Assembly: GCA_964390305.1 (NCBI GenBank)
Contig: CAYMHT010000002.1
Location: forward strand, 27,212 to 91,211
Direction of reading: 5' to 3'
Length of the DNA stretch: 64,000 bases
Source of the DNA: an uncultured Anaerolineales bacterium
Lineage (GTDB): Bacteria; Chloroflexota; Anaerolineae; B4-G1
The position numbers and the translations under genes are program-made. Each line of letters begins with the position of its first letter. The stretch's first letter is position 1. Under the pieces are notes generated by a model, which had not been told where the DNA came from, searched no databases, and worked only from the letters and a program-made list of their open reading frames with translations. Of this stretch, positions 19,126-42,529 are shown in pieces.

Positions 19126-20406
19126 CTAGTCAGTTGCCGCCGGCGTGCCAGTGATCGTCCCCGTTATCTCAGGCGTTGCCGTCAGCTCCGTGACCTCCGA
19201 TATCCTAACCTGCACCGTCGCCGGTATCACACCTTGCGACTCGATGGCATCGGGTACGACCACCTCCGGCTCAATCTGATGCGTACCAACCGGTAGTTCG
19301 AACAACTCAAGCACCACCCGCACGTCGTTCGACGTCAGCGACTCCAGCCTCGGCAGCGGCCCGCTCAAGATCACCTGTACCGTGTCTGGGGAGACGGTGG
19401 CCGTGTAGCCCGGTTCCAGCCCCTGGATCTCCGGCGTGCTCGTGATCGTCGTGCTGCTCTGGATCGCTTCGATGAACACCCGCACCTCAACTCGCTCGCC
19501 CGGCACGAGGCTGACCTTGGGCGGAGTGCTGAGACCGGGCCGTACCACGACGTCCTCCTCCGCTCCCTCCACCACCACCGGCCTTGTCTCGATGAACCCT
19601 TGCTCCAGGGCCCCCAGGTCCTGCGGGCTACCAAACACGGTCACTGTTGGCGGATTGATGGCAATATCCGTAATTCGGTACCCCGACGCAACTTCGCCGG
19701 TCAGCACCGCCTTGACCGCCAGCGTCGCATGATAACCCGATGGCTCGATCGGTATGCGAACGTTCACTGTCTCCGGCGTCAAGGAGACGTTCGGGACCAC
19801 GTTCCCCTCCTCATCCCTCGGTCGCACAGTCAGGGCCTCTTCGACGTCCGCTTCGGCGCCCTGCATCGAAAGCGACGCATGGACCTCCACCACTTGGCCT
19901 ACGAAGCTGCTCGGCCCCGTCACCATCACCTCCCGCGGCTCCACCGTTTCCGCGCCCGGAACATAACCGATAGCTGGTCTGCCTTCCGTCTCAATACGCA
20001 CAGGTACTTCCTGACTCGCCTTGGAATCCAGCTCGATCGTCACCGTCTGCGGATCGACGTCCACGACCCTCGACGGCTGCTCATCCAGATCGACGTCGAC
20101 CTCTACCTCGTGAACCCCGCTACCCAGACCACCAACATCCGCTACCGCGGAGAAGTCGTCCACGCTCAACGAGTCCCACACCGCCTGCGTCGTCCGCACC
20201 GTCACCCGGACCTCTTCGTCAAATCTCCCCACAATCACTAGATCTTCCGCAAGCCCAGCGGTCCTGACGGGAATCGACTGCGCAAACTGTCTCTCCACGG
20301 TCGGATTGGACTGCTCAACGGCCACAAACCACGCCAACACGGCCAGCATAAGTGCCATCACGATCAAAGGCAGATTGGCGACCAGCCAGCGCGCTGCCTG
20401 TCTCAT
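19126..20406 (-). CDS. cdaR: YbbR-domain protein (CdaR-like regulator of diadenylate cyclase)
   Basis: N-terminal TM anchor followed by repeated YbbR-like beta domains; 4-nt overlap with cdaA. Confidence 0.75.
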   Translation of the reverse strand: MRQAARWLVANLPLIVMALMLAVLAWFVAVEQSNPTVERQFAQSIPVRTAGLAEDLVIVGRFDEEVRVTVRTTQAVWDSLSVDDFSAVADVGGLGSGVHEVEVDVDLDEQPSRVVDVDPQTVTIELDSKASQEVPVRIETEGRPAIGYVPGAETVEPREVMVTGPSSFVGQVVEVHASLSMQGAEADVEEALTVRPRDEEGNVVPNVSLTPETVNVRIPIEPSGYHATLAVKAVLTGEVASGYRITDIAINPPTVTVFGSPQDLGALEQGFIETRPVVVEGAEEDVVVRPGLSTPPKVSLVPGERVEVRVFIEAIQSSTTITSTPEIQGLEPGYTATVSPDTVQVILSGPLPRLESLTSNDVRVVLELFELPVGTHQIEPEVVVPDAIESQGVIPATVQVRISEVTELTATPEITGTITGTPAATD

Positions 20407-21239
20407 GATCCTCCCAGCCTCTGACGCAGCTGCCGAATTCGCTGTGACCAGCCTCGTTCAAGCATCGGTTGGTAGAAAGCGTGCAGAACCTTTTCCAGCC
20501 GCTTGGCATCCAGATTCCGGATAATGCGCCCATTGTGCGCAATTGAGATGGCGCCTCTCTCCTCAGAGACGACGACTGCAATCGCGTCACTCTCCTCTGT
20601 CACCCCGATCGCCGCTCGGTGACGCAGACCCAGCTGACGGTCCGCCAGAAAGGCCGTGGACAGCGGCAGCACGCACCCGGCCGCGAGCACCCGTCCTTCA
20701 CGAACGATCACTGCCCCATCGTGCAATGTGGTGCTGGGATTGAAGATGGTGAGTAGCAGTTCGTACGACACCTCAGCATCCAGCTCCACGCCACTGTCCA
20801 CAAACTCCTGGAGCCCTGTTCGCCGCTCCAAGACGATCAGTGCCCCGTGGTGACGCTGGGCCAGCGTCTGCGCTACCTCGGTGACGGTGGACAGCGCAAA
20901 TTCCACCTCCTCCCGTCTCCCCACTCTCCGGCCAAACAGTGTCCCTGGGCGCCCCAGCTGTTCCAGCGCGCGCCGTAGCTCCGGCTGAAAGATGACCGGG
21001 ATCGCCACCAGCAAGGCGGGGAGCGTGCTCTCGATCAACCACCCGAAAGCTCGGAGCTCGATCAGCCCGCCCAGCAGCAGCACGACAATCACCAAGAAGA
21101 TAAGGCCGCGGAGCAGGGGAACGGCTCGAGTGCCCCGGACGAGATAGAAGAGCCAGAAGAAGATCAAGGCCACGAGCAGAATGTCGACAGCATCCACCCA
21201 TCCGAGCCTCTGAAGGTACCAAAACAGATCAGGGATCAT
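20403..21239 (-). CDS. cdaA: diadenylate cyclase CdaA (DAC domain) with three N-terminal TM helices
   Basis: DisA_N/DAC motifs (LHDGAVIVREGRVLAAGCVLPLS...RHRAAIGVTEESDAIAVVVSEERGAIS). Confidence 0.85.
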   Translation of the reverse strand: MIPDLFWYLQRLGWVDAVDILLVALIFFWLFYLVRGTRAVPLLRGLIFLVIVVLLLGGLIELRAFGWLIESTLPALLVAIPVIFQPELRRALEQLGRPGTLFGRRVGRREEVEFALSTVTEVAQTLAQRHHGALIVLERRTGLQEFVDSGVELDAEVSYELLLTIFNPSTTLHDGAVIVREGRVLAAGCVLPLSTAFLADRQLGLRHRAAIGVTEESDAIAVVVSEERGAISIAHNGRIIRNLDAKRLEKVLHAFYQPMLERGWSQRIRQLRQRLGGS

Positions 21240-21306
21240 AGATCAATGCCGATCCATCTACGACACCGCTGGACCTCACCCTCGACACCCCTTCTAGAAT
21301 GAGACA

Positions 21307-23667
21307 TCAGGCGCCGGCCTGTCCCGTCGTCCCCATCGTCTCCAGTAGGTCCTGGTAGCCATCCACGCCCGGCGGATTCAGGGCGATGATCGCCCGAATA
21401 GTTGCCTTAGCTTCTTCGCGCTGTCCGGCGTCGAGCTGTAGATGCGCCAGCCTCTCCATGTGCTCCACAGCCACCTCCGTGTCTCCCACGTCGAGATGCA
21501 CCTCGGCCACCCGCCCCCGCAGGGGGATGCTGTCGGGCCACCTCTCGACCAGATCACTCAAGACACTGAACATCCGCTCTGCCCGACCCCTCTCCCGGTA
21601 CAGTTGAAGAAGCCCGTCGAGTTCCTGAATCGCCCTCTCCGGTCGATTGAGTCGATGGTAAAGCTCCGTCAACGACCTACGCGCTCGCTCATCGCCGGGC
21701 GCTTCGTCCCGAATCCGTTCGTACACCGACACCGCACGCCTCCAGTCTACGCGCTGCGTATCGATGTCGGCGATCCTGTGGAGAATACGCACCGTCCAGT
21801 CCCGCGCCTCGTCACTCCTGTGCGCCAGTCGAAGCGCCTCCTCGTAGGCCTCGCGCGCCAGGCCCATCTGCGCAAGACGGTAGTGGCTATCCGCCAGCAT
21901 CAGGTATTCTCTCAACGCGTCATCGATATTTCCGTCGCTGACGAGCAAGTCAATAACCTTGGCTCGCACGCCTGCGTCCATAGGCGCCAGGTCAAGGGCC
22001 CGCTCGTACATTGCCACAGCCTGGCGTGGCAGCCCACGAGTCCGATACGTGTCGCCTATCACCACGAACTTATTGACTGCCTCCTCCACGTCCCCCATCG
22101 CGAGACACACATCGGCAAGCTGCCGATGGACAGGCAGGCAGGTGGGCGTCGACTCCAGCGCGTAATGGCATTCTTCCATCGCCGAGTAGTACAGACCTCG
22201 TCTGACGTATTCTCGGGACGTCGCAATCGACTCCAGCGTCCGCTCCCAGTGCGGGACCGTCAACGCCTCCGCCAGGCTCACGCCTGTCCCCTGTCCGGCC
22301 AGCGTGTCGAGTATCTGGCGCGCCGCCCTGACTCTGTCCTCCCAATCCTCATCCTTCAGCAAGCTCACCAGTGAGTTGACGAAATCGAGCGCCTGGGACC
22401 GGTGGCCTTCAACCAAGTAGCCATCACTCAGGTGCTCGTACAGACTGAGCAGATCATCAGTATGCTCTTCCCGGGCGTTCGCCACATCGATGGTCTTCAA
22501 CACCTCGATGAAGTGCTCTAGTGCCTCATTCACGCGCCCGCGAGCACGGTAGCACTCCCCAAGAGCAAAGCAGCTACCCAGCCTGTAATCAGAATGCGCG
22601 GCGGCACGCTTAAACTCCGCCACTGCATCGTCAAACCGGCGCAACTCCTGATAGAGGTACCCCAGGCTAAACTGCAGCGCCGCACAGTCTCCACCAGCCT
22701 CGATCACCTTCTCATACGCTGTCACCGCCTCCGCGGCCTTCCCACGAGCTTGCAGGTCGATCGCCTCGCTGATAAGGGCGTCAACCGCCCTCCTACCGCG
22801 CCCTCCGGCTCCCATTCCGAAGGGTTCTTGTTCCCTGAAGATGCTCTCCGCCAGCTCCGAAAGCGCCTTGCGTCGCGTGACCTCCGCCGGGCTCCCTTTT
22901 TCTTCCCTCTGCTCATACGCCTCCGCAGCCTCGAAATCCAGGCCTACCACCTCGGCAAGTTCCGGTTCCACCGCAGCTTCAGACGCCGACCGAGTCCCAG
23001 CATCAGCTCCCGCCCTCATCTCACCGTCCTGACGCAGTTCATCGAGCATGCTCGACACGTCAGGATTGTCTGGCGCCAGCCGTTGCGCGTGTTCGCAGAG
23101 GCGAATCGCATAGTCGGGCCGCTGTCGATCCCGGTATAGCCCTGCCAGCGCCAGGCATTCGCCAACCGCTTTCCCCGTTCGCCCTTCACGCTGATACTGC
23201 TTCAGCAACGCCACCCGCACGTCCACGCAGGACGGGTCCAGGTCAGCGGCTGCCTCCCAGCACCCCGCCGCCAGCTGGGGCGCCCGCTGCTGCTCGATAT
23301 ACTGCCTGCCACAGGCCAGGAACGCTCTGGCAGCCTCCTTCTTGTGGCCAACCTCCTCCAGTGCTTTCGCCAGTTGCTGCAGCAACACTGGGTCTTCAGG
23401 CTCGATTTCGCTCGCCCGCCTGTAGATCTCCAATGCCTTTCCTGGTCGCCCCACACTCCGATAGGCCATACCCAGGCCCGAAAGCGCCGGAACGCTCTCT
23501 GGGAACTCCTCGAGCGCCCGTTCATAGGCCGAGATGGCCTCCAACCAGTCCCCCTCCCACGCAACCCCAGTGGCGGCTCGCATTGCCTTCTCGAACACTT
23601 CCCGGTCTCCTGCCACCATCGGACCTCTCAGTCTCTCTGAGTCGGCTTGGCCCTTCTCTCGATCCAT
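21307..23667 (-). CDS. large tetratricopeptide-repeat (TPR) protein
   Basis: 786 aa, many ~34-aa repeats with the A/Y/L pattern of TPRs (e.g. ...AYRSVGRPGKALEIYRRASEIEPED...). Confidence 0.7.
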   Translation of the reverse strand: MDREKGQADSERLRGPMVAGDREVFEKAMRAATGVAWEGDWLEAISAYERALEEFPESVPALSGLGMAYRSVGRPGKALEIYRRASEIEPEDPVLLQQLAKALEEVGHKKEAARAFLACGRQYIEQQRAPQLAAGCWEAAADLDPSCVDVRVALLKQYQREGRTGKAVGECLALAGLYRDRQRPDYAIRLCEHAQRLAPDNPDVSSMLDELRQDGEMRAGADAGTRSASEAAVEPELAEVVGLDFEAAEAYEQREEKGSPAEVTRRKALSELAESIFREQEPFGMGAGGRGRRAVDALISEAIDLQARGKAAEAVTAYEKVIEAGGDCAALQFSLGYLYQELRRFDDAVAEFKRAAAHSDYRLGSCFALGECYRARGRVNEALEHFIEVLKTIDVANAREEHTDDLLSLYEHLSDGYLVEGHRSQALDFVNSLVSLLKDEDWEDRVRAARQILDTLAGQGTGVSLAEALTVPHWERTLESIATSREYVRRGLYYSAMEECHYALESTPTCLPVHRQLADVCLAMGDVEEAVNKFVVIGDTYRTRGLPRQAVAMYERALDLAPMDAGVRAKVIDLLVSDGNIDDALREYLMLADSHYRLAQMGLAREAYEEALRLAHRSDEARDWTVRILHRIADIDTQRVDWRRAVSVYERIRDEAPGDERARRSLTELYHRLNRPERAIQELDGLLQLYRERGRAERMFSVLSDLVERWPDSIPLRGRVAEVHLDVGDTEVAVEHMERLAHLQLDAGQREEAKATIRAIIALNPPGVDGYQDLLETMGTTGQAGA

Positions 23668-23669
23668 AC

Positions 23670-24629
23670 CTAGACTCCGGACGCCCTCTCCTCGTCTCCC
23701 ATCAGGCTGACCAGCAACGCCTTCTGGGCATGCATCCGGTTCTCAGCCTGATCCCACAGGACCGAGTGTGGGCCATCGCAGACCGCATCTGTGATCTCCT
23801 GCCCTCGATGCGCAGGCAGGCAGTGCATAACGATGACGTCGGACTTGGCGTTCTCAAGCAACGCCTGATTCACCTGGTAAGGCGCGAAGATCCGAGCCCG
23901 CTCCGTTGCCTCTTCTTCCTCACCCATCGACGCCCACACGTCCGTATAGACCACATCTGCGTCCGTGACGGCCTCCTCCGGTTCGTGGGTCGCAAATACC
24001 TCGCTGCCGCTCGTCGCAGCGAACCGCTGACCCTGCTTCCAGACGTCATGCGCCAGCTCGTATCCCGCAGGGTTGGCAATCGCGAAGTCCATTCCCACGA
24101 GCGTGGCGCCGAACAACAGTGACGTAGCTACGTTGTTCCCGTCCCCCACGAAAGCCAGCTTGTGCCCCGTGAGATCGTCCCCCTTCTTCTCGACCATCGT
24201 GAGCAGATCAGACAACCCTTGACACGGATGATTATAGTCAGACAGACCGTTGATCACCGGGACCGACGAATACACTGCCAGGGTCAATACATGGTCGTGA
24301 TCAAAGACCCGCGCCATGATCCCGTCCACGTACCGAGAGAACACCCGTGACACATCGGGCACACCCTCCCGTTCGCCCAACTGAATCTCAAAAGGAGAGA
24401 AGTAGAGCGCCTGGCCGCCGAGGTGGAGCATCCCCATCTCAAAAGAGGCTCGAGTTCGAAGAGAAGGCTTCTGAAAGATCATGCCGAGGGTCTTGCCCCC
24501 CAACAAAGGACGGTTTCCTCCACGCTTCCACTCTCTCTTCAACTGCGCGGCTAGGTCGAGCAGAGCGCGAATCTCCTCAGACGTAAGGTCAGCCAGACTA
24601 AGAAAATGTCGCATCGGAATCCCCTCCAC
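23670..24629 (-). CDS. argF: ornithine carbamoyltransferase
   Basis: STRTR carbamoyl-phosphate motif ([11 protein letters not shown]), HPCQ and HCLP motifs of OTCases. Confidence 0.85.
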
Positions 24630-24742: not shown

Positions 24743-24925
24743 TTACCCGCGCTCTTCCAGCCGCTCCTCCATCGCCTTGATCTCTAGCTCGATCCGCCGC
24801 TGCCGCGCCCAGATCGAGAACACGAGGACAAACGTAAACGCCCAAAACACCGCGTAGGCCGCCACCAGATAGACAGACATCACAGCCTCCCCTGCTCCTC
24901 CACTAGCCGTTTCACCTCCGTTCAA
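24743..24925 (-). CDS. ccmD: heme exporter protein CcmD-like small single-TM protein
   Basis: 60 aa, one TM helix, positioned right after ccmC with 14-nt overlap. Confidence 0.5.
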   Translation of the reverse strand: MNGGETASGGAGEAVMSVYLVAAYAVFWAFTFVLVFSIWARQRRIELEIKAMEERLEERG

Positions 24926-25604
24926 GGTTCACCCGCAACCGAACCACCTCTTCCCTCGCTCGCTCGAGAGACACCCGCAAGCGGAGCGTCGTCGCGTACA
25001 GCAGCGTGAAAGCCCCAATGGCCACCAACAACGTCTGCGTCATCCGCGGCGTGATGGCCATTCCCTCACCCCCCGTCAGAACGTCTGGATGAATCGTCCG
25101 CCACCATCGAATCGCGAACCAGGACAACGGCACGGTGACGAAAGCCACAATGCCGTAGACAGCACCGAACCGCGCCTTCTGCTCGGAGCTCTCCACCGAT
25201 GCGCGCAGCATCCCGTACGCCACGTAGATCAGAAACTGGACGACAGAGATCGTCAGCCGCGGCTCCCAGGTCCAGTAGGTGCCCCACACCGGCTTCGCCC
25301 ACAGCGACCCTGTGACGACGGTCATGGCGATGAACGTGAGCCCCACCTCAACCGACGAGAGGCTTACCATGTCCCATCGGCGCCCCCCCGTCGCGAGGTA
25401 GCCAATCCCTGTTACAAGGGTCACGAAGAAGGCAAAGAATCCCACCCATGCAGAAGCCACGTGGAAGTAAAAGATGCGCTGCACATCGCCCATCGTGGCC
25501 TCGCGCGGGGCGTAGAGAAACACCATCCCCAAAGCCGCGATCACAGCCGCCCCGGTCCCGGCCGTAAGGACAACGTCCCACACCCGTCGTCTCCACTTGC
25601 TCAT
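24912..25604 (-). CDS. ccmC: heme exporter protein CcmC
   Basis: WWD-domain signature (WAKPVWGTYWTWEPRL) and conserved His. Confidence 0.85.
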   Translation of the reverse strand: MSKWRRRVWDVVLTAGTGAAVIAALGMVFLYAPREATMGDVQRIFYFHVASAWVGFFAFFVTLVTGIGYLATGGRRWDMVSLSSVEVGLTFIAMTVVTGSLWAKPVWGTYWTWEPRLTISVVQFLIYVAYGMLRASVESSEQKARFGAVYGIVAFVTVPLSWFAIRWWRTIHPDVLTGGEGMAITPRMTQTLLVAIGAFTLLYATTLRLRVSLERAREEVVRLRVNLERR

Positions 25605-25621
25605 CGCTTCTCGCCCCTTCC

Positions 25622-26308
25622 CTACTCCTCGACGACGTACCCGAACGTCAGCACGGAGATAGCCATGACGGCCAGATCATACGCAACCAGGATGCGGACC
25701 CAGCCTCTCACCTCACTCAGCGTCGCCCCCCCTATCAGCCCCCCGGTCGCTTGAACGGCTCCGATGAGAACGGGGACCGCCAGCGGTAGAAGGAGCACCG
25801 GAAGCATCACCTCTCTCGCCCGTGTGTTCACAGCGATCGCAGCCAGCAACGTCCCCACCGCTGCGTAGCCCACCGTTCCCAGCGCCAGCACCACGACAAT
25901 GCCCGCACGCAGCAACGGTACGTCAAACAAGGCAGCGAAGAAGGGCAGCAGAACCACTTCCACGACCGCCATAAACAGCATGTTGCTCGCTGCCTTGCCG
26001 AAGAAGACCGCCGAGCGGTCCATCGGCGCCAGCAGGAGTCCGTCGATGCACCCATTGAGCTCCTCGACCGCCAGCGAGCGGCTCAGCCCCAGCGTGCCTG
26101 CGAAGGCCACCGTGGCCCAGAGCACACCCGGCGCCGCCGCCTCTGCCATCTCCCCACGCAGATCCAGTGTGAAGCTGAAGATCATGAGCGCCAGGGCCGA
26201 GAACACCAGCATCGCGCTCACCAACTCCTTGCTGTGGACCTCAGCAGCGATGTCCTTCTCAACGATGGCCAGCACCTGTCCCAGAAAACGCAATCTCCTG
26301 ACCCCCAA
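25622..26308 (-). CDS. ccmB: heme exporter protein CcmB
   Basis: CcmB-type six-TM ABC permease, placed between ccmA and ccmC. Confidence 0.8.
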   Translation of the reverse strand: MGVRRLRFLGQVLAIVEKDIAAEVHSKELVSAMLVFSALALMIFSFTLDLRGEMAEAAAPGVLWATVAFAGTLGLSRSLAVEELNGCIDGLLLAPMDRSAVFFGKAASNMLFMAVVEVVLLPFFAALFDVPLLRAGIVVVLALGTVGYAAVGTLLAAIAVNTRAREVMLPVLLLPLAVPVLIGAVQATGGLIGGATLSEVRGWVRILVAYDLAVMAISVLTFGYVVEE

Positions 26309-26317
26309 CCTCGACGC

Positions 26318-27013
26318 CTACGTCGTCATGGCCCGGTACGTATCCGCGAACGTCTGTGCCGAAATTGCCTCACGCGGCTGGTCGTAGATCAAACGACCTC
26401 GGTGGAGAACCAGGACTCGCTCGCCCACCGCCAGACCCCGGCTCATCCGATGCGTCGCGAGCAGCATTGTCCGTCCTTCTCCGGTCAGATTCACGAGCAT
26501 GTCGGTCAACGTCTCCACCGCCACTGGGTCGAGCCCTGCGTAAGGCTCATCCAGCAGCAGAACCTGCGGCCCATGAAGCACCGCTCGAGCAATCGCAAGC
26601 CGTTGCTTCATCCCTCCCGAGAATGTGCGTACTCTATCACGCCGCCGGGCCCCAAGACCCAGCTGCTCCAGGAGGTCCCCGATCCGCACCGAAGCCTCCG
26701 CAACAGCGTACATCCGGGCGTAGAACCGCAGGTTCTGCTCAGCGGTGAGGTCATCGTAGAGCAGCGTCCGGTGAGACAGGAAGCCGATCTGCCCACGCAC
26801 CCGCTCTCCCCGGCGACCCGGGTCTACCCCGCCGATACGCACGCTCCCGCTGCTCGGCCGAGCGATAGTGGCTAGGACCCGGAGCAGAGTCGTTTTTCCC
26901 GCCCCGTTAGGCCCCACCAACGTGACGAACTCGCCCTCACGGATCAAGAGATCGATGCCCGCCAGAGCAGTGCGGGGGCCGAAGCTCTTGGTCAGGTTCC
27001 AGGTCTCAATCAT
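26318..27013 (-). CDS. ccmA: heme exporter ATP-binding protein CcmA
   Basis: Walker A GPNGAGKTT, signature FSGGMKQRLAIA, Walker B LLLDEP. Confidence 0.85.
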   Translation of the reverse strand: MIETWNLTKSFGPRTALAGIDLLIREGEFVTLVGPNGAGKTTLLRVLATIARPSSGSVRIGGVDPGRRGERVRGQIGFLSHRTLLYDDLTAEQNLRFYARMYAVAEASVRIGDLLEQLGLGARRRDRVRTFSGGMKQRLAIARAVLHGPQVLLLDEPYAGLDPVAVETLTDMLVNLTGEGRTMLLATHRMSRGLAVGERVLVLHRGRLIYDQPREAISAQTFADTYRAMTT

Positions 27014-28245
27014 CCACGCCGACCCGACAGTTTCTCGCCCAACCGCCGTTTCAGGGCCTCCCGCTTCTCTCGGTACACCCTCTCCGAAACGTACCCCCTC
27101 TCAAAATCACGATCTAGCGCAGCAATCACTTCGACCTCGGTCCGTACCTGCCTGGGGACCGATCCAGGCAACGGCGATCGCCACAGCCAGTACACTGCCG
27201 CGCCGGACAGGGCCAGCGCAGCGATCCCCACCGCCACATCCGCCAGCTCATCGGTACGCTCTGTCTCCGCAGCACCGACCCCGGTGCCAACCACTGCGAA
27301 GGACAGCGGCTCACCCGCATCCAGCGGCCCTCCCGTGTACGAAGTCGCAGGTCCCATCTGGGTCTCCAGTGGACCCTCCGCAGACAGACCGGCTCCCTCC
27401 AACCTGGCGCCTTCCCCTATCAGCACCACAACGAACCCATCCACCGGCAAATCGAACGCCTCTTCAATCGGCTGTCCCTCGGAATAGGCCACTTCGTAGG
27501 TGAATGAGATTTCCACACTCCCCCGCCCCGGAGGGATCGCTCTCGTATCGCCGAATCCGTCGCCCATCGCGACGAAACGCCCGCCAAGCTCCCCTCCGTC
27601 GAAGCCAAGCCTTTCGGCCCCGCCCGGCAGCGCCACAGCCCACGTTGTGGGGCTGCCGGACCCGGAGCGCGACGACCCGACGTAGGTACGCGCACCGTCG
27701 TTGCTGATCACACAGTGCTGCCCAACGCGCAGCCGGTCCTCTACCCTCTCCACGAATACGTGAAGCTGATCCACGCTCACCTCTCGGGCATCCTCTGTGG
27801 CCTCGTAGACGGTGATGGGTAGCGAGACCTCCTCCTCGCCCGGCTGAACAGTGACCATCTCAGACACGTACATCACGCCCTCGTAAACGGCCCGTGCGAC
27901 GAGGACCTGACCCGCCTGCACTGGGACCTGCCCGAAACGGAACCGGCCCTCCGAGCTCAGCGTCGTCGCATAAACGTCCGTCTCCTGCGTGCCGGAGAAG
28001 ATGTGCAGCGTCACCTCCAGGTCATCTGGAACCACCCCATCCGGGGTCCCGTTGACGACTTCGCCGACCACGGTCCTGACGAGATTCTGCGAGTCATACG
28101 CATTCGAGACACACGCATCGCACTCATACGTCCAGGAGTCATCCGTCCAGCCGATAGAGAGTGATGCCGTGACTAACGCGAGCGCCACAAGGGGCCAACG
28201 CGTCCAGGCCGTCTCGCGGTGTACGGGTGTCCAATGCTCGCTCAC
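27010..28245 (-). CDS. ccm-operon embedded protein: signal peptide, CxxC near N-terminus, large periplasmic beta-rich domain, C-terminal TM helix and SHOCT-like cytoplasmic tail
   Basis: 4-nt overlaps with ccmA and with upstream zinc-ribbon gene; motif TYECDACVSNAYDS after signal; tail ...ALDRDFERGYVSERVYREKREALKRRL. Confidence 0.5.
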   Translation of the reverse strand: MSEHWTPVHRETAWTRWPLVALALVTASLSIGWTDDSWTYECDACVSNAYDSQNLVRTVVGEVVNGTPDGVVPDDLEVTLHIFSGTQETDVYATTLSSEGRFRFGQVPVQAGQVLVARAVYEGVMYVSEMVTVQPGEEEVSLPITVYEATEDAREVSVDQLHVFVERVEDRLRVGQHCVISNDGARTYVGSSRSGSGSPTTWAVALPGGAERLGFDGGELGGRFVAMGDGFGDTRAIPPGRGSVEISFTYEVAYSEGQPIEEAFDLPVDGFVVVLIGEGARLEGAGLSAEGPLETQMGPATSYTGGPLDAGEPLSFAVVGTGVGAAETERTDELADVAVGIAALALSGAAVYWLWRSPLPGSVPRQVRTEVEVIAALDRDFERGYVSERVYREKREALKRRLGEKLSGRRG

Positions 28246-28511
28246 CGAGAGCCCCCCCTCAGTCTCTCCCCGCAGCCGGAGCAGAACCGGTCATCGGCAG
28301 CAACACGACGATCACACCGTGGACAGAAGCTGACGGTTTCACCGTCCGCCCCAACCGTCTCTCTCTCCCGCACCTGGACCACCCAGGTTTCGATCGCCCG
28401 ATCCAAATCGGCCGTTCGCGTCCCTCTACGGAACGGTCGCGCCACGTACGCCGCCACCACAGCGAACGCACCAATACCCACCAATACAGCGCCGATGCTC
28501 ATCGTCACCAC
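28242..28511 (-). CDS. small membrane protein with C-terminal C4 zinc-ribbon (CPRC...CSGC)
   Basis: 89 aa, N-terminal TM helix, CxxC-x12-CxxC; 4-nt overlap with downstream gene, inside ccm operon. Confidence 0.45.
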   Translation of the reverse strand: MVTMSIGAVLVGIGAFAVVAAYVARPFRRGTRTADLDRAIETWVVQVRERETVGADGETVSFCPRCDRRVAADDRFCSGCGERLRGGSR

Positions 28512-28559
28512 CTCACGCTGCGACTCCCCTCTCCAACTCCCTCTTCAGCCCACCGGCGG

Positions 28560-30626
28560 TCATCGGACCAACGGCCTCGCCGGCCCCCACATCGCCCAGA
28601 CAGCCACCACCAGCAGAGCCGCCCCGACAATTAGTCCTGCGGTGCTCCACAGTCTTCGTCGCCGTGCGCCGGATCTGGGTACATCCGCCGCCCTTGCCGC
28701 TGGCCAGCCAGCGACGGCTCCACCCGTCACGAACACCAGCCCACCCAGCCACAGGAACGACACCAGCGGATTGATCAGGACTTTCAACGTCACCGTCCCG
28801 TCCCCCTCCGCCCAGCCGGCCAGCACGACGTAGAGGTCCTCTCTCGCCCCTGACCAAACCGCCGGGGCTGCCACCGTCTGACCGAAGTTACCATACGCCT
28901 CCAGCCGGGGTTCCAGCCTAGTCAGCTGTCTCCCTCCGCGATACACAGAGACCATAGCCTCCGTCGTCACACGGTCACTCAGCGCCTCGCGCCTCAACTC
29001 CTCAAAGACCACCGTGTACCCCTGGACGTCCACCGACTCACCCGCTCCCAGCACCGCGTCTGTCTCAACTGAATAAAAGCGCGTGCCGATCACCCCAATC
29101 GCCATCAGAATCACCCCGGCGTGCACCACGTAGCCGCCGTACCGGCGACGGCCCCGGCCAAACAGGTGCCACACAGCCCTCAGCACCCCCTCGCCCTGGC
29201 GCCTCCGCACAGCCACGCCGCGTGCGATCTCCGCTAGCGCGGTCCCCCCCGCCAGCCCAACCAGGGCAAAGCCCACCAGCGAAGACGGGCGCGTGAAGCC
29301 CGACAGAGCCGCGCCAAGCGTCACGATCAGGCCACCTGAGATCGCTCCCAGCCCTCGCTTCGGCAAGCCGCGCACTGCGGTTACTGCCCGTCCCAGCAAC
29401 GGGCAAACCCCCATCACCAGCACCAGAGCGGCGAACTGCGGCCCTGTGACGCGATCGAACCAGCTCGGCCCCGCCTCAAACCGCTGGCCGGTCAAAGCTT
29501 CTGTAAGTGTCGGCAGGAGACTCCCGATCAGCACCGAGCCGGTGATGGTCAAGAAGAGGATCAACGTCAGCGTGAACGTCCCTTCACGGGAGAAGAGTTC
29601 GTCCGACGCCCTAGGACTGCTCAGTAGCGATCGGCGGCTGTAGAACAGCGCTAACGAGCCCAAGACCGTCACGCCGATAGCACCCAGGAAGTAGACGCCC
29701 AGGTTTGACCGGGCGAAGGCATGGACCGACTGGATCAGCCCGCTCCTCGTCGCGAACGTCCCGAACAGCACCAGCGTGAACGAAATCAGCACCAGACTCA
29801 CATTCCACCAGCGGAACCCGCGCCGCTCATCCTGCATCACCAGACAGTGAAGCAGCGCGGTCGCCGTGAGCCACGGCATAAGGCCCGCGTTCTCCACCGG
29901 ATCCCAGCCCCAGTACCCTCCCCACCCCAGGACGTCGTACGCCCAGCGCATGCCCAGGAAAACCCCCACGCCCAGAAACAGCCATGCCCACAGAGTCCAC
30001 CCCCGCGCAGCCTTCGGCCATTCCTTCATACGTCCGGTAACCAACGCAGCCAGCGCCAGCGCGAAAGGCACCGCGAGCCCCACATACCCCAGATACAGCG
30101 CCGGTGGATGGAAGATCATCCCCGGATGCCGCAGCAGCGGGTTCAGCCCCCGGCCATCGACGGGCACGCCCTCAGACATTCGGAAGGGGTTCGAGAGAAA
30201 CAGGGTCACGAATACGAAGAAAGCGGTGATCAGGCTCAGGAACACAGCTGCCCAGGCGACGAGCGGCTGGCTCTTCTTCGACGCTCCCCCCGCCACCAAC
30301 GCGCCAAACAGCCCCTGCAGAAACGCCCACACCAGCAGCGACCCGGTCTGACCTCCCCATACGGCCGAGACCTTCAGGTACAGGGGGAGATCACGACTCG
30401 AGTGCTCCATCACGTAGTCGATGGCGAATCGATCAGCCAGAAACGCACCCACCAGGGCCAGCACGGCCAGCCCCAAGAGACCCGCAGCGGCGAAGACTGC
30501 GTTGCGACCACTCTCCCACCAGCGCCCATCTCCGCTCCGAATGGACCAAAATATGACAGCGGCGGCGTAGAGGACCGTCATCAGCGCCAGCCCGATAAGG
30601 ATCGACCCAACCTCTGCGAGCATCAA
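28560..30626 (-). CDS. ccmF: cytochrome c-type biogenesis protein CcmF
   Basis: WWD domain (WGGYWGWDPVENAGLMPWL), multi-TM, 688 aa. Confidence 0.85.
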   Translation of the reverse strand: MMLAEVGSILIGLALMTVLYAAAVIFWSIRSGDGRWWESGRNAVFAAAGLLGLAVLALVGAFLADRFAIDYVMEHSSRDLPLYLKVSAVWGGQTGSLLVWAFLQGLFGALVAGGASKKSQPLVAWAAVFLSLITAFFVFVTLFLSNPFRMSEGVPVDGRGLNPLLRHPGMIFHPPALYLGYVGLAVPFALALAALVTGRMKEWPKAARGWTLWAWLFLGVGVFLGMRWAYDVLGWGGYWGWDPVENAGLMPWLTATALLHCLVMQDERRGFRWWNVSLVLISFTLVLFGTFATRSGLIQSVHAFARSNLGVYFLGAIGVTVLGSLALFYSRRSLLSSPRASDELFSREGTFTLTLILFLTITGSVLIGSLLPTLTEALTGQRFEAGPSWFDRVTGPQFAALVLVMGVCPLLGRAVTAVRGLPKRGLGAISGGLIVTLGAALSGFTRPSSLVGFALVGLAGGTALAEIARGVAVRRRQGEGVLRAVWHLFGRGRRRYGGYVVHAGVILMAIGVIGTRFYSVETDAVLGAGESVDVQGYTVVFEELRREALSDRVTTEAMVSVYRGGRQLTRLEPRLEAYGNFGQTVAAPAVWSGAREDLYVVLAGWAEGDGTVTLKVLINPLVSFLWLGGLVFVTGGAVAGWPAARAADVPRSGARRRRLWSTAGLIVGAALLVVAVWAMWGPARPLVR

Positions 30627-31108
30627 GACTCCCCGGCCTGGCCTGGAACAGCTTCCTCATACCGCGTCGGGCATTTCAGCAGAACCTCGTCAGCGTAGAA
30701 ACGACCATCCCCCCTGAGCTCACCCCGAATGATGGCCTGAGCCTCGTGCTGCAGAAGACCAGGTTTGACGTCCGCCAGTACCACCTCGATCCGCGGTGTG
30801 TCAGGGTCGCTCACGGCGTCGTGAAGCACCGCTGTCAATCCCCCTGCCCGCTCGACCTCCCTCGGGTCCCCCGGAACCTGAGCGATCGTGAACGTCACCA
30901 TCGGCTTCGACGCATCATAGGAGATCGTGTCCCCCAGGACAGCTCCCGAGATCGTGATGCGCCGCCCGCGCGCATCGCCTCCCATCGCTCTTAGCTCGTC
31001 GATGGTCAGGAAATAACGAGCACTTTCCCCGGTGCTGCTGACAATAAGGTACACCACCGCCACCACAATCAGCAAGCCGGCTACCACGACCTTTGGCCTA
31101 CTCACCAT
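30623..31108 (-). CDS. ccmE: cytochrome c maturation heme chaperone CcmE
   Basis: N-terminal TM anchor plus OB-fold CcmE core (...FTIAQVPGD...GRFYADEVLLKCPTRYEE). Confidence 0.85.
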   Translation of the reverse strand: MVSRPKVVVAGLLIVVAVVYLIVSSTGESARYFLTIDELRAMGGDARGRRITISGAVLGDTISYDASKPMVTFTIAQVPGDPREVERAGGLTAVLHDAVSDPDTPRIEVVLADVKPGLLQHEAQAIIRGELRGDGRFYADEVLLKCPTRYEEAVPGQAGES

Positions 31109-31535: not shown

Positions 31536-33713
31536 TCAGCCATCGCGCGCCATGATCGGAAACAGCAGGCTCGAGCGGTGGGGAAGGAGCCCGATCGCTC
31601 GCAGATTAAGCGTAAGCGTGCCATCCCCGGGTCCCACCGCGACCGGCAGGTGCCGCGGCAGCCACCCTGGCGGGAAGAATGAGGGCCAGTCTGCCGGGGT
31701 GATCACCAGGACGTAGTCCCCCACGTCAACCACTTCCGTAAACGCCCACGACGAGCCGCTGCCTGTCACGACGTCCCGCCCACGCTCGTCCACGAAACGG
31801 AACGTGAGGCCACTCATCGTCGGCTCGTCCTTCTCGTCGCCCTGTATCCCGTTGCCGTCTTGGTCCCCAAACACAGAGGTCACCTCGATCTGCACAGTCC
31901 GCGTCTTCTGCGTCGGGCCAAGCGTCGTGCACGGCTCCTGATCCGCCCAGGGGCCCGGATTTCCCGCCCGATCCCAGGCACGCACTCGGAAGCAGTACGT
32001 CGCCCCCTCCTCTCCCGTGAAAGCGATCGGGGCGGACCGCAGACTACCCCATCTCTCCCAGGGCCCGCCGTCTTTCTGTAGCTCCACCTCGTAGCCCCAG
32101 ATCCCCGCCGCATCGTCGCTCGCGGTGCAGTGAATCGTCACAGTCGACGAGTCGCTCGTTGCAGGTAGAGGGTCAACGACCGCCTTCGACGGCGGTACAG
32201 TGTCCTCCTCAACGAGCAGGTACGGCTCCCCCCCGATCAAATAGTCCTCAGGATCACTCTGCAGGTTGGCGGTCGCGCCAGGCAGGCTGACCCGGTACAC
32301 ACCGTCCCTCGCCTCAACCATCTCTTGACCGCCGCGACGATCGATCACTCTCGCGCTCGGCAGCGTCGCCGGGTAATCAAAGACGTGCCCCGACGGCGTG
32401 GTGTTCCACAGGACGCTCACCTTCCCTCGCGGCGTCCCCCATAGCGTCACCCGGCGCGTGCCGTCGCCGTACGTCCAGTTTGTCACCATCGTCGGCCTCA
32501 CCAGGTACGTGGTCGCTACCTGGTAGGCCGCATACGCCGGCCGCACAGAACGGTCGTTCCGCACCAGCCCAAAATACTCCACCATATCGGCGTCGTGCGT
32601 GCGAAAGAAGAAGTACCGCTCGACGCCCGAGGCCCAGGCGTTCGCGTAAGACTGGATCGCGTAGGCGGCCGCCTCCTCCTGCGTCGCAGCGTAATCGTAC
32701 CTGTTCGGGTCAGGATCCACGGACCCGTCATCCCAGACCGGCACCCCCGTCTCCGTGAGCCACACGGGATGATCGGACACCCGACGCCTCATATCGCTGC
32801 GGATTTCGTTCACCACCTCGTACGTGTTAGACGAGCGGCTGTAGAGATGCACGGACATCACATCGAAGAAATAGTTGCTCGCTGCCGCCTCAGGATCGTC
32901 CCGCAGCACGTTCAACACCCACTTATAGTAGTCCTGGTTCGCCCAGTAGTGGAGGCCTCCGAAAAGCACCTGACAGTCGCTGCAGGCCGCTTTCGTCGCT
33001 CGGTAGCCTACCTTCAGCAACCGCGCGTAGTCGCTGGAGCTCCCGGTCCAGAAGTACGTCCATTCCGGTTCGTTCCACATCTCCCAGTGTTTGACCCGGT
33101 CGCCGTATCGCTCCACCACCTTATGTACGAAACGCCCCCAAGTGTTTATTGGGTCCCCATCCCCCGTGGTCCAGTCGTTCCACGCCTCGTAGAGCCCCCT
33201 CGGCGGCGACGAGGCCGCGCTCGCCACGCTCACCGCCCCCAGCGACTCCACACCCCCCGGCACCGGCGCGTACCACCCAGGCGGTCGCTCATACGTCTTG
33301 GGGGCAGCGAGCGCCGCGGTCCCCCCGGTCGCCGCCCAATCCGGCGTCCACAGCAGGATGCCCACCATATTGAAACCCGCACCGTCGAGATCGTCCACCA
33401 GCGTGTCGTACGCCTGGAGAGCTTCATTGCTCCAATTCCCCTCGCTCGGTTCCAATCTCGGCCACACGAAATCGAACCGGTCCCATCGCGACCCGGCCTC
33501 ATACGCAAGAGACATGTACAGACGCTCTGAACCCCCGTCGGGATAGAAGGAGTAGCACATGCCTCCACGGCCATCCGTGGCAGCTGACGGAGCCAGAGCT
33601 GACGGAGCCAGAGGAGTCATCTCGGTCAGCTCGGCAGCACTGGAATTGGAGACTGTCCCCGGCAAGATCAGGAGAGCAAGAATCGGCACTATGAGCAGCA
33701 GCGTGCGTTTCAT
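31536..33713 (-). CDS. secreted glycoside hydrolase (clan GH-A TIM barrel, GH5/GH39-like) with fibronectin type III and C-terminal beta-sandwich domains
   Basis: Signal peptide MKRTLLLIVPILALLILPG; catalytic-acid region WEMWNEPEW; Fn3-like segment (...YCFRVRAWDRAGNPGPW); start re-set to MKRT. Confidence 0.65.
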   Translation of the reverse strand: MKRTLLLIVPILALLILPGTVSNSSAAELTEMTPLAPSALAPSAATDGRGGMCYSFYPDGGSERLYMSLAYEAGSRWDRFDFVWPRLEPSEGNWSNEALQAYDTLVDDLDGAGFNMVGILLWTPDWAATGGTAALAAPKTYERPPGWYAPVPGGVESLGAVSVASAASSPPRGLYEAWNDWTTGDGDPINTWGRFVHKVVERYGDRVKHWEMWNEPEWTYFWTGSSSDYARLLKVGYRATKAACSDCQVLFGGLHYWANQDYYKWVLNVLRDDPEAAASNYFFDVMSVHLYSRSSNTYEVVNEIRSDMRRRVSDHPVWLTETGVPVWDDGSVDPDPNRYDYAATQEEAAAYAIQSYANAWASGVERYFFFRTHDADMVEYFGLVRNDRSVRPAYAAYQVATTYLVRPTMVTNWTYGDGTRRVTLWGTPRGKVSVLWNTTPSGHVFDYPATLPSARVIDRRGGQEMVEARDGVYRVSLPGATANLQSDPEDYLIGGEPYLLVEEDTVPPSKAVVDPLPATSDSSTVTIHCTASDDAAGIWGYEVELQKDGGPWERWGSLRSAPIAFTGEEGATYCFRVRAWDRAGNPGPWADQEPCTTLGPTQKTRTVQIEVTSVFGDQDGNGIQGDEKDEPTMSGLTFRFVDERGRDVVTGSGSSWAFTEVVDVGDYVLVITPADWPSFFPPGWLPRHLPVAVGPGDGTLTLNLRAIGLLPHRSSLLFPIMARDG

Positions 33714-33925
33714 CGCTGGTTCCTCGACTCGTCGACGAGACCGTGACACTGAACTGTATTCTATCATAAATCGCAGAAAACAACAGCCACGCAGGGGTGC
33801 ACGATCCCCTCAGCACTCGTGGTCAACACCCAGCTCCTTATCACCCCGGTCGTACTCGGGCACCCAGAAAAAAGAGGAGTGTGATGCCTCTGGCTTCTGA
33901 GGGGCACTGCCCAGTTGTAGTGTGG

Positions 33926-42398: not shown

Positions 42399-42529
42399 TT
42401 TCTCCCCTTGCCCAGATATGTTACGGCAGATCGTGCCCAGGTGCGCTTCACCTTCCATCGGAAGACCACCGTCCAGCGCATCTGCCCGATTATACATCCA
42501 CAGTCTGATTACTGAAATCGGAGGTAACC

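What the first reader, a model, noticed from the sequence alone, without database searches (positions are those of the whole stretch)
24743..31108. Atypical System I ccm operon: ccmE-ccmF-[Zn-ribbon TM protein]-[CxxC/SHOCT-tailed 411-aa protein]-ccmABCD, with no recognisable ccmG/ccmH
Sequence: all genes are on one strand with 4-nt overlaps (ccmE/ccmF, Zn-ribbon/411-aa, 411-aa/ccmA), so the two unknown genes are true operon members. The 411-aa protein has a signal peptide, then TYECDACVSNAYDS, a large beta-rich periplasmic region, a C-terminal TM helix and a SHOCT-like cytoplasmic tail. The 89-aa protein has one TM helix and a CPRC...CSGC zinc ribbon. Established knowledge: System I requires a thioreduction arm (CcmG/DsbE plus CcmH with an LRCxxC motif) to keep apocytochrome CXXCH cysteines reduced. 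Inference: the CxxC protein may be a divergent CcmH-like apocytochrome reductant, fused to extra domains, or a new accessory pair.
Basis: partly seen in the sequence, partly recalled or inferred. Interest (0 to 1): 0.55.

Follow-up and report, generated by a model that had tools for sequence, protein, structure and literature searches.

The report
Cytochrome-c maturation operon with two extras
This is a known cysteine-type ("System I*") cytochrome c maturation operon from an Anaerolineae (Chloroflexota) bacterium; its two unknown genes are a conserved, uncharacterised membrane-protein pair typical of that class, and the eye-catching CxxC motif is a recent lineage-specific accident rather than a hidden CcmH.

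Summary
The gene order is real. On the minus strand it runs ccmE, ccmF, a TM + zinc-ribbon protein (Z), a 411-aa protein (X), then ccmA, B, C and D, with overlapping stop and start codons.

CcmE carries CPTRY instead of HxxxY. The operon is therefore the published System I*, which can lack CcmH and CcmG and has been noted in Chloroflexi.

The CcmH-like reading of X fails:
- The CxxC lies in a 15-residue insertion made by 15-nt microduplications.
- It occurs only in this organism and a 98%-identical relative, out of about 100 loci and 142 family representatives.
- It falls in a segment the model treats as disordered.
- X is all-beta, with no thioredoxin or CcmH fold.
- Heme-less X sits beside genuine ccmH and ccmG in related operons.

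Close relatives carry a CcmG-like thioredoxin domain fused to CcmF. The window lineage deleted it, leaving an orphan anchor helix and possibly an out-of-frame remnant.

Z and X do form a conserved Anaerolineae pair in this operon slot:
- About 70 of 78 X-centred loci have ccm genes alongside.
- 25 of 26 ccmE-centred loci have X.
- X is often fused to a mono- or diheme cytochrome c, once to Z, and once to CcmF::Trx.

I read Z and X as a clade-specific accessory module of the heme-ligation step. Its mechanism is unproven.

The parts
30623..31108 (-). ccmE, the cysteine-type heme chaperone. Its C-terminal motif is LLKCPTRY (CxxxY, not HxxxY).
   Evidence: PF03100, E 1e-16. The motif is read from the translation. 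Every related locus where the motif could be read has LKCP[ST][RK][YF].
28560..30626 (-). ccmF, the holocytochrome c synthase core, 688 aa, with WWD motif WGGYWGWDPVEN. The likely true start is the ATG at 30623.
   Evidence: CcmF_C 9.6e-45, Cytochrom_C_asm 6.5e-34, TIGR00353 3e-125. Junction read.
28563..28664 (-). An extra C-terminal TM helix of CcmF (RRRRLWSTAGLIVGAALLVVAVWAMWGPARPLVR). It is the orphaned membrane anchor of a CcmG-like thioredoxin domain that is fused here in relatives.
   Evidence: It matches 'RRRRAWNTAGLVVGLILLGLAAWAMWG' of L089. It also matches the equivalent helix in L001 and L003, which is followed there by a Redoxin/AhpC-TSA domain with WCPPC.
28519..28572 (-). Possible out-of-frame remnant (GPMTAGGLKRELERGVAA*) of the last 18 codons of the deleted thioredoxin domain. 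It straddles the ccmF stop and the ccmF/Z spacer.
   Evidence: tblastn against L003 'GPVTAGRLREELDSLVAE*' gives 10/18 identities with the stop at the same place, E 0.39. It is the best hit of a 19-sequence Trx HMM in the six-frame window, but only 2.3 bits, E 7.9. This is suggestive only.
28242..28511 (-). Z, a small single-pass membrane protein. It has an N-terminal TM helix, an ARPFR motif, a DRAIEtWV motif and a C-terminal (predicted cytoplasmic) CxxC...CxxC zinc ribbon. The likely start is the ATG at 28502 (86 aa).
   Evidence: PF13240, 25.6 bits against 25. The alignment with 22 type-1 orthologs has all four Cys invariant. An identical 86-aa protein, P0206, is in public assemblies.
27010..28245 (-). 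X, 411 aa. It has an N-terminal signal/anchor helix (aa 16-31), three beta-sandwich-like regions (aa 54-146, 156-253, 259-320), a TM helix (334-355) and a cytoplasmic helical hairpin related to SHOCT (365-410).
   Evidence: AF2 mean pLDDT 85.6, with residues 55-320 above 90. There are 58 word-index homologs. The profile finds 7,903 50%-cluster representatives. No Pfam or NCBIfam family matches.
28102..28146 (-). A lineage-specific 15-residue insertion, TDDSWTYECDACVSN (C42, C45), at the signal-peptide boundary of X. It is built from diverged 15-nt tandem copies.
   Evidence: It is absent from all other homologs. pLDDT is below 50. TRF finds period 15, 1.9 copies, 85% matches at 28090-28118. 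The units are read directly.
26318..27013 (-). ccmA, the heme-exporter ATPase.
   Evidence: TIGR01189, 136.1 bits against a cut-off of 131.6.
25622..26308 (-). ccmB
   Evidence: PF03379, 8.2e-32.
24912..25604 (-). ccmC
   Evidence: TIGR01191, 6.8e-36; PF01578, 5e-25.
24743..24925 (-). ccmD (alternative CcmD family).
   Evidence: TIGR04391, 24.2 bits against 24.

Best explanation
The locus is a complete System I* (cysteine-CcmE) cytochrome c maturation operon of an Anaerolineae-class Chloroflexota bacterium.

The two unknown genes are not a disguised thio-reduction arm. They are a clade-specific pair that belongs to the heme-ligation half of the machinery.
- X has a three-part beta-sandwich ectodomain, then a TM helix, then a cytoplasmic SHOCT-related hairpin.

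Shown:
- The pair occupies the same slot, after ccmF/ccmH/ccmG and before ccmA, across the class.
- In most lineages X is the C-terminal two-thirds of a lipoprotein-type mono- or diheme cytochrome c.
- The heme domains were lost several times while X stayed in the operon.
- X can be fused to Z, or to CcmF::CcmG.

Inferred:
- Z and X associate in the membrane through their TM helices and cytoplasmic tails, and sit next to CcmF.
- There the X ectodomain acts as a non-catalytic platform that holds or positions apo- or holocytochrome c on the outer face.
- This role would resemble that of CcmI, or of ribophorin I in oligosaccharyltransferase. It is not redox chemistry.

The layout seen in most related operons also had ccmH and ccmG. 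The subclade containing the window lost ccmH from the operon and fused the CcmG thioredoxin domain to CcmF. The window lineage then deleted that domain.

The CxxC in X is a recent by-product of microduplication plus point mutations.
For: System I* identity:
- CcmE has CPTRY.
- Every related ccmE whose motif could be read has LKCP[ST][RK][YF].
- The literature defines System I* by Cys-CcmE, notes Chloroflexi among its carriers, and shows function without CcmH and CcmG (PMC3601427; PMC9084895).

Synteny:
- About 70 of 78 X-centred genome loci have ccm genes alongside X.
- Of 26 ccmE-centred metagenome loci with at least 6 kb downstream, 24 have X in the slot and one more has it fused to CcmF::Trx.
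- The stop and start codons of Z/X and X/ccmA overlap.

Fusions:
- L106 is one 1165-aa ORF, CcmF::Trx::X domains 2-3.
- 74 of 142 family representatives carry one or two CxxCH motifs N-terminal to X (Pfam and NCBIfam).

Retention without heme:
- Heme-less X forms one large clade and appears sporadically inside heme-bearing clades, still within ccm operons.

Not a CcmH substitute:
- L039, L040, L081, L082 and L029/L038/L042/L077 have CcmH, CcmG and heme-less X together.

Structure:
- The all-beta ectodomain model is confident.
- Best whole-length Foldseek matches are Ost1/ribophorin I, E 1.9e-9 to 1e-7.

Shared motif:
- Long Z and the X tail share a SHOCT-like motif, 41% identity over 34 aa, E 0.001.

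Thioredoxin loss:
- The orphan anchor helix and the weak remnant support it.
Against: - No experiment or interaction prediction links X or Z to CcmF. The inference rests on synteny and three kinds of fusion, and two of those are single cases that could be assembly or deletion artefacts.
- X and Z evolve faster than the core Ccm proteins. Median identity to type-1 orthologs is 46-50%, against 66-75%.
- Between the window and its 98%-identical relative, dN/dS for X is 0.58, against 0.18-0.29 for ccmABC. That fits weak constraint.
- A clade of mono-heme Y::X paralogs lies outside ccm operons. The X module can therefore serve simply as a cytochrome anchor.
- One related locus (L094) has ccmE-ccmABCD with no ccmF, Z or X nearby.
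- L106 lacks Z and the first X domain, so those parts are dispensable at least there.
- The fold matches are to very common beta-sandwich architectures, with TM-scores below 0.3.
Confidence: 0.55

Rival explanations
1. X is not a machine part. It is the leftover stalk and anchor of a client cytochrome. In this reading, the diheme cytochrome c::X lipoprotein found in most related operons is simply a respiratory electron carrier encoded beside its maturation genes. In the window's subclade it lost its heme domains, and X persists as a structural envelope protein or a decaying relic.
For: - About half of the family carries cytochrome c domains.
- Mono-heme paralogs sit in non-ccm contexts.
- dN/dS for X is relatively high, at 0.58.
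Against: - Heme-less X is retained, with a conserved ectodomain (59% mean column identity among close orthologs).
- It stays translationally coupled inside the operon across a large clade and after several independent heme-domain losses.
- It stays paired with Z, and is fused to Z or to CcmF::Trx in some lineages.
Confidence: 0.25
2. X is a divergent CcmH-like (or CcmG-like) apocytochrome thiol reductant that acts through its CxxC and replaces the missing thio-reduction arm.
For: A CxxC (C42, C45) is present on the predicted outer face of the membrane. No ccmG or ccmH is found in the window.
Against: - The CxxC is found only in the window organism and its 98%-identical relative. Many orthologs have no cysteine at all.
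- It lies in a segment with pLDDT below 50.
- There is no thioredoxin or CcmH fold and no PF03918 match.
- X co-occurs with real CcmH and CcmG.
- System I* does not need CcmH or CcmG (PMC3601427).
Confidence: 0.03
3. This is lineage-specific compensation. After the window lineage deleted the CcmG-like domain of CcmF, the newly created membrane-proximal CxxC in X was selected as a makeshift thiol-disulfide site.
For: - The Trx deletion and the CxxC insertion are both confined to the same shallow lineage: the window plus L005 and L084-L087.
- Both cysteines arose by point changes in duplicated units. TAT became TGT, and TCC/TCG became TGC, giving exact CxxC spacing.
Against: - There is only one lineage, so no statistics are possible.
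- Two other Trx-less operons, L016 and L107, have no CxxC in X.
- The motif sits in a disordered linker with no thioredoxin scaffold.
- A free-standing CcmG/ResA may exist elsewhere in the genome; this was not testable.
- The insertion DNA shows no relation to Trx active-site DNA.
Confidence: 0.08
4. Z and X form a trans-membrane signalling or regulatory pair, in the style of an anti-sigma factor or a sensor, that controls ccm expression or activity rather than taking part in heme ligation.
For: Z has a cytoplasmic zinc ribbon. X has a large extracytoplasmic domain and a small cytoplasmic tail.
Against: - No sigma factor or other regulator is conserved next to the pair.
- Z has its TM helix at the N-terminus and its zinc ribbon at the C-terminus, which is not the usual zinc anti-sigma layout (my own knowledge).
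- X is fused to cytochrome c domains, or to CcmF::Trx, in other lineages.
Confidence: 0.05

Closest known systems
System I* (variant Ccm system with cysteine-type CcmE; Desulfovibrio and archaea)
   Same: - CcmE has CxxxY in place of HxxxY.
- ccmA, B, C, D, E and F are present.
- ccmH and ccmG are absent from the operon.
- Chloroflexi are listed among carriers of Cys-CcmE (PMC3601427).
- About a third of such bacteria still have CcmH (PMC3601427). That matches the related Anaerolineae operons here that keep ccmH and ccmG.
   Different: - Two further conserved genes, Z and X, are embedded between ccmF and ccmA.
- Close relatives have a CcmF::thioredoxin fusion.
- I found no description of either feature in the searched literature.
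CcmH (PF03918) / CcmG-DsbE thio-reduction arm
   Same: Only this: X in this organism has a CxxC on the predicted outer side of the membrane.
   Different: - There is no sequence or fold similarity.
- The CxxC is not conserved.
- Genuine CcmH (FCPVCE..., PF03918 3.5e-24) and CcmG (WASWCxPC, ResA/DsbE-like) exist as separate genes next to X in related operons.
CcmI / CycH (apocytochrome c chaperone of System I)
   Same: - Both are non-catalytic, membrane-anchored accessories encoded with ccmF/H.
- Both combine a large extracytoplasmic domain with a cytoplasmic helical segment.
- No TPR-type CcmI is present in these operons, so the role may be vacant. This is inference.
   Different: - CcmI's outer domain is TPR (alpha-helical), whereas X is all-beta.
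- No CcmI-family match appeared for Z or X in NCBIfam, even at E<=10.
- Any resemblance is functional analogy only.
Ost1 / ribophorin I, a non-catalytic subunit of eukaryotic oligosaccharyltransferase
   Same: - The overall plan is the same: beta-sandwich domains outside, one TM helix, and short cytosolic helices.
- Both accompany a polytopic enzyme that modifies unfolded secreted polypeptides. This last point is my own knowledge.
   Different: - TM-scores are only 0.27-0.29 and sequence identity about 10%.
- There is no Pfam Ribophorin_I match.
- The beta-sandwich folds involved are common, so homology is not established.
Membrane-anchored diheme cytochromes c (CcoP-like, QcrC-like)
   Same: The N-terminal domains fused to X in about half the family match Cytochrome_CBB3/Cytochrom_C and TIGR00782 CcoP.
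   Different: The window's X has no heme-binding motif at all. The X module itself is not part of any described cytochrome family.

Membership tests
System I* (Cys-CcmE variant of the Ccm system) | [quoted passage not shown] | tested here: met
   LLKCPTRY at the CcmE C-terminus. The same motif is present in every related locus where it could be read. The definition comes from PMC3601427 and PMC9084895.
System I* (Cys-CcmE variant of the Ccm system) | The core genes ccmA, B, C, (D), E and F are present. | tested here: met
   Pfam and NCBIfam matches for all six.
System I* (Cys-CcmE variant of the Ccm system) | CcmH and CcmG are absent. Per PMC3601427 this is frequent but not obligatory. | tested here: inconclusive
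   None found in the 64-kb window by tblastn or HMM. The rest of the genome could not be searched.
CcmH (PF03918), tested on X | A match to the CcmH profile, with a conserved (L)RCxxC motif in a small helical domain. | tested here: not met
   No PF03918 match at E<=0.1. The CxxC is absent from all orthologs outside the window lineage. The model is all-beta.
CcmG/DsbE/ResA thioredoxin-like, tested on X | A thioredoxin fold with a WCxxC active site. | tested here: not met
   [not shown]
Zn_Ribbon_1 (PF13240), tested on Z | Two CxxC knuckles that match the profile above the gathering score. | tested here: met
   25.6 bits against a cut-off of 25, residues 62-83. All four Cys are invariant in 23 sequences.
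SHOCT (PF09851), tested on the X tail | A match to the 28-residue SHOCT profile at the C-terminus. | tested here: inconclusive
   The window tail has no SHOCT match at E<=10; its best match is GvpG at 0.049. The aligned tail of homolog P0056 scores 31.4 bits against 27.
CarboxypepD_reg (PF13620), tested on the first X domain | A profile match above the gathering score, and a transthyretin-like beta-sandwich. | tested here: inconclusive
   [not shown]
CcmI / CycH, tested on Z and X | A CcmI N-terminal module plus a periplasmic TPR domain. | tested here: not met
   No CcmI or TPR family match for Z (short or long form) or for X. X is all-beta.
Ribophorin I / Ost1 | Sequence-family membership (Pfam Ribophorin_I) together with the fold. 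| tested here: not met
   Structural resemblance only: Foldseek E 1.9e-9, TM 0.29. No Pfam match.

The most novel reading that the evidence does not exclude
Z and X are bona fide, previously unrecognised subunits of the holocytochrome c synthase module in Anaerolineae. They would form a beta-sandwich 'apocytochrome platform' with a zinc-ribbon partner that takes the place of CcmI. In their cytochrome-fused form they might also wire electrons to the ligation site. System I would then have a clade-specific accessory architecture not seen in proteobacteria, archaea or mitochondria.
Probability: 0.35. Interest if true: 0.65.

Novelty: new variant of a known kind. Interest (0 to 1): 0.45.

Why it matters
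How System I and System I* deliver and hold apocytochrome at CcmF when CcmH, CcmI or CcmG are missing is still open. PMC9084895 explicitly raises the possibility of non-orthologous replacements.

A pair of genes conserved inside the ccm operon across a whole bacterial class is a concrete candidate for such an accessory. The supporting points are:
- The family has thousands of cluster representatives and no Pfam or NCBIfam family.
- It shows natural fusions to cytochrome c, to Z and to CcmF::CcmG.

The same comparison documents a stepwise reduction of the thio-reduction arm in nature. It runs from separate ccmH and ccmG, to a CcmF::Trx fusion without ccmH in the operon, to deletion of the Trx domain. 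That bears on which Ccm parts are truly essential.

The specific claim of a hidden CcmH should be dropped.

Tried and rejected
- **CxxC as a conserved redox motif.** Rejected by alignments of 19, 43 and 142 homologs and by about 83 loci.
- **Insertion as a transplanted piece of the deleted Trx active site.** blastn-short of the 69-nt region against all loci found nothing beyond itself and L005. The resemblance WTYECDAC / WATWCPPC is limited to W, C and C.
- **Long Z or the X tail as a CcmI N-terminal module** (a lead from memory). There was no CcmI-family match in NCBIfam at E<=10. Not supported.
- **Trx remnant as significant on its own.** The HMM score is only 2.3 bits, E 7.9. I kept it as suggestive because of its position and the matching stop. 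The deletion rests mainly on the orphan anchor helix.
- **Sequence relatives of X in the PDB.** None found; best E 0.033, spurious.
- **AFDB50 fold search.** The library was unavailable.
- **Pfam scan of all 142 representatives.** Replaced by CxxCH counting.
- **First related-loci scan, with the divergent alignment A1.** It failed for lack of conserved stretches. Repeated with A2.
- **DNA-level alignment of the scar region to L089.** Too diverged; only the start of Z aligned.
- **Anti-sigma or regulator reading.** No regulator is conserved nearby.

Full report
**Observation**

All eight ORFs lie on the minus strand at the coordinates given. Profile searches identify:
- ccmE (PF03100)
- ccmF (CcmF_C plus Cytochrom_C_asm; TIGR00353, 3e-125)
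- ccmA (TIGR01189, above its cut-off)
- ccmB (PF03379)
- ccmC (TIGR01191, below its own cut-off, and PF01578)
- ccmD (TIGR04391, just above its cut-off)
- an 89-aa protein, here called Z, whose C-terminus matches Zn_Ribbon_1 just above the gathering score

The 411-aa protein, here called X, matches no Pfam or NCBIfam family. Its only trace is a sub-threshold CarboxypepD_reg hit.

The junctions show overlapping stop and start codons for ccmE/ccmF, Z/X and X/ccmA. The descriptive part of the finding is therefore correct.

Four independent metagenome assemblies contain the same operon with the same 687/688-aa ccmF. The layout is not an assembly artefact.

**This is System I\*, which is already known**

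CcmE ends in LLKCPTRYEE. It has the CxxxY motif instead of the HxxxY motif of classical System I.

The literature defines this as System I*. It is found in archaea, Desulfovibrio and other bacteria, explicitly including Chloroflexi. It was shown to make holocytochrome c without CcmH or CcmG, and only about a third of carriers keep CcmH (PMC3601427; PMC9084895).

'No recognisable ccmG/ccmH' is not in itself surprising.

**The CxxC**

I aligned X with its homologs (58 from the word-indexed search; alignments).
- TDDSWTYECDACVSN is a 15-residue insertion exactly at the signal-peptide boundary.
- It is present only in the window and in P0001/L005, a relative 98% identical at DNA level.
- Across 83 loci only L005 shares it, and many orthologs have no cysteine at all.
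- Among the 142 best 50%-cluster representatives, the window is the only one with a non-heme CxxC in the extracytoplasmic part. One other, P0105, has two CxxC motifs, but they belong to its fused zinc ribbon.
- The AlphaFold model is confident for residues 55-320 (pLDDT above 90) but below 50 for residues 33-49, which contain the motif.

At DNA level the insertion consists of diverged 15-nt tandem units. TRF finds period 15 with 85% matches, and the units are read directly. The two Cys codons are single-base derivatives of Tyr and Ser codons of the repeated unit. The insertion shows no relation to thioredoxin active-site DNA.

**Fold of X**

No thioredoxin or CcmH-like fold appears among the listed matches. 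There is no sequence relative in the PDB.

**What the relatives show**

X belongs to a large family. The profile finds 7,903 cluster representatives at E<=1e-3 and 2,821 at E<=1e-30.

A pattern scan of one genome per species returned 78 loci. All but two are labelled Chloroflexota, mostly Anaerolineae-class orders (Anaerolineales, Thermoflexales, Caldilineae, Aggregatilineales). I mapped the window's proteins and related queries onto these loci. Two main layouts emerged.

- **Type 1**, the closest relatives (X 38-62% identical): ccmE, then ccmF fused to a C-terminal thioredoxin domain (Redoxin/AhpC-TSA, WCPPC-type site), then Z, X and ccmABCD. No ccmH lies within 8 kb.
- **Type 2**: ccmE, ccmF, ccmH (PF03918, 3.5e-24), ccmG (ResA/DsbE-like), a longer Z (about 180 aa), X and ccmABC.
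  - In type 2, X is usually the C-terminal part of a roughly 620-aa lipoprotein-type protein.
  - Its N-terminus has one or two CxxCH cytochrome c domains that are CcoP-like.

Heme-less X also occurs together with ccmH and ccmG, in L039, L040, L081, L082 and L029/L038/L042/L077. X is therefore not a substitute for CcmH.

A reciprocal scan centred on ccmE in metagenomes gave 26 loci with at least 6 kb downstream.
- 24 have X in the expected slot. Three of these were detected only with an HMM.
- One (L106) has X fused to CcmF::Trx.
- One (L094) has ccmE-ccmABCD with no ccmF, Z or X.

**Fusions and heme-domain losses**

- L106 encodes a single 1165-aa ORF: CcmF, anchor helix, thioredoxin domain, X domains 2-3, TM helix and tail.
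- Of the 142 best representatives, 68 have no heme motif, 7 have one and 67 have two.
- A neighbour-joining tree of the X core places heme-less X in one large clade that includes the window. Heme-less X also appears sporadically inside heme-bearing clades, always still inside ccm operons.
- Mono-heme copies with no ccm neighbours form a separate paralogous clade.
- In its long form, Z shares a SHOCT-like motif with the X tail (41% identity over 34 aa, E 0.001).

**Loss of the thioredoxin domain in the window lineage**

The window's CcmF does not stop after the canonical last helix. It continues with ARRRRLWSTAGLIVGAALLVVAVWAMWG and ends eight residues later.

In L089, L001 and L003 the same helix (for example RRRRAWNTAGLVVGLILLGLAAWAMWG) is the anchor that leads into the fused thioredoxin domain.

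Immediately downstream, in another frame and ending in a stop just before Z, the window reads GPMTAGGLKRELERGVAA*. This resembles the end of the thioredoxin domain (GPVTAGRLREELDSLVAE* in L003). It is the best hit of a thioredoxin-domain HMM anywhere in the six-frame window. However, it scores only 2.3 bits, so on its own it is merely suggestive.

Taken together, the window lineage most likely deleted a CcmG-like domain that its ancestors had fused to CcmF.

Two other operons, L016 and L107, also lack the domain, and they have no CxxC in X. This argues against the CxxC being a general compensation.

**How it most likely works**

Shown:
- operon membership
- class-wide conservation of the Z-X pair in one slot
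- fusion of X to cytochrome c domains, to Z and to CcmF::Trx
- retention of X after repeated loss of the heme domains
- an all-beta ectodomain with a TM helix and a cytoplasmic hairpin

Inferred:
- Z and X form a membrane complex adjacent to CcmF, using their TM helices and the cytoplasmic zinc ribbon and SHOCT-like tail.
- The X ectodomain serves as a non-catalytic docking or holding platform for apo- or holocytochrome c at the ligation site. This would be analogous to CcmI, or to ribophorin I in oligosaccharyltransferase.

I put this at about 0.55.

The main rival, at about 0.25, is that X is merely the stalk and anchor of a client cytochrome and has become a relic here. In its favour:
- non-ccm paralogs exist
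- X and Z evolve faster than the core proteins (46-50% against 66-75% identity)
- dN/dS is 0.58 against the nearest relative, compared with 0.18-0.29 for ccmABC

A lineage-specific compensation role for the new CxxC cannot be excluded but has only coincidence in its favour, at about 0.08.

**Novelty and verdict**

The operon type is known. The missing thio-reduction arm is explained partly by System I* biology and partly by a documented secondary loss. The CxxC is an accident of microduplication.

What remains interesting is the Z-X pair. It is a large family without Pfam or NCBIfam coverage, and I found no paper describing it. It is embedded in the ccm operons of a whole bacterial class.

I rate this a new variant of a known kind, of moderate interest.

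Noticed in passing
L106:10344-13841 (metagenome contig Ga0101944_10000495): A single stop-free 1165-aa ORF encodes CcmF, an anchor helix, a thioredoxin domain (WATWCPSC), X domains 2-3, a TM helix and a SHOCT-like tail. Z and the first X domain are missing. It looks like a natural three-way fusion of the synthase, the reductase domain and X.
   Followed up: partly
[not shown]
   Followed up: partly
window 28090-28158 (minus strand): The CxxC insertion in X is made of diverged 15-nt tandem units (TGGACGGATGACTCC / TGGACGTATGAGTGC / GATGCGTGTGTCTCG / AATGCGTATGACTCG). Both Cys codons are one-base derivatives of Ser and Tyr codons of the unit.
   Followed up: yes
window 19126-24629 (minus strand): The genes downstream of ccmD are an ornithine-carbamoyltransferase-like gene, a 786-aa TPR protein, a diadenylate cyclase (CdaA-like) and a YbbR-domain protein. 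This order is conserved in L001, L003 and L005, going by the precomputed Pfam labels of those loci. They are probably unrelated to ccm.
   Followed up: no
L001:11258-11840 and L002:1702-2284: In one relative a PemK-type toxin gene and a small partner gene, on the opposite strand, are inserted between X and ccmA. This breaks the otherwise tight operon.
   Followed up: no
L067, L073, L075, L078 (about 7.3-9.1 kb in L067): Mono-heme cytochrome c::X paralogs in Aggregatilineales-like genomes sit in a different conserved neighbourhood, with no ccm genes. The upstream gene begins with a motif that looks like a tRNA-dihydrouridine synthase (my reading; not tested), and another CxxCH protein lies nearby.
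   Followed up: partly
L094:10001-12959: A related operon has ccmE followed directly by ccmABCD. There is no ccmF, Z or X within 10 kb. A thioredoxin-like gene lies on the opposite strand about 6 kb further on.
   Followed up: no
L016:5489-7450 and L107:10498-12456: Two further type-1-like operons lack the thioredoxin domain on CcmF. These appear to be losses independent of the one in the window lineage, and neither X has a CxxC.
   Followed up: partly
window 38010-42497 (minus strand) and 31536-33767 (minus strand): A 1495-aa ORF, and a 743-aa ORF with a hydrophobic N-terminal segment immediately upstream of ccmE, were not characterised. In L084 the ortholog of the latter has no Pfam hit on record.
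   Followed up: no
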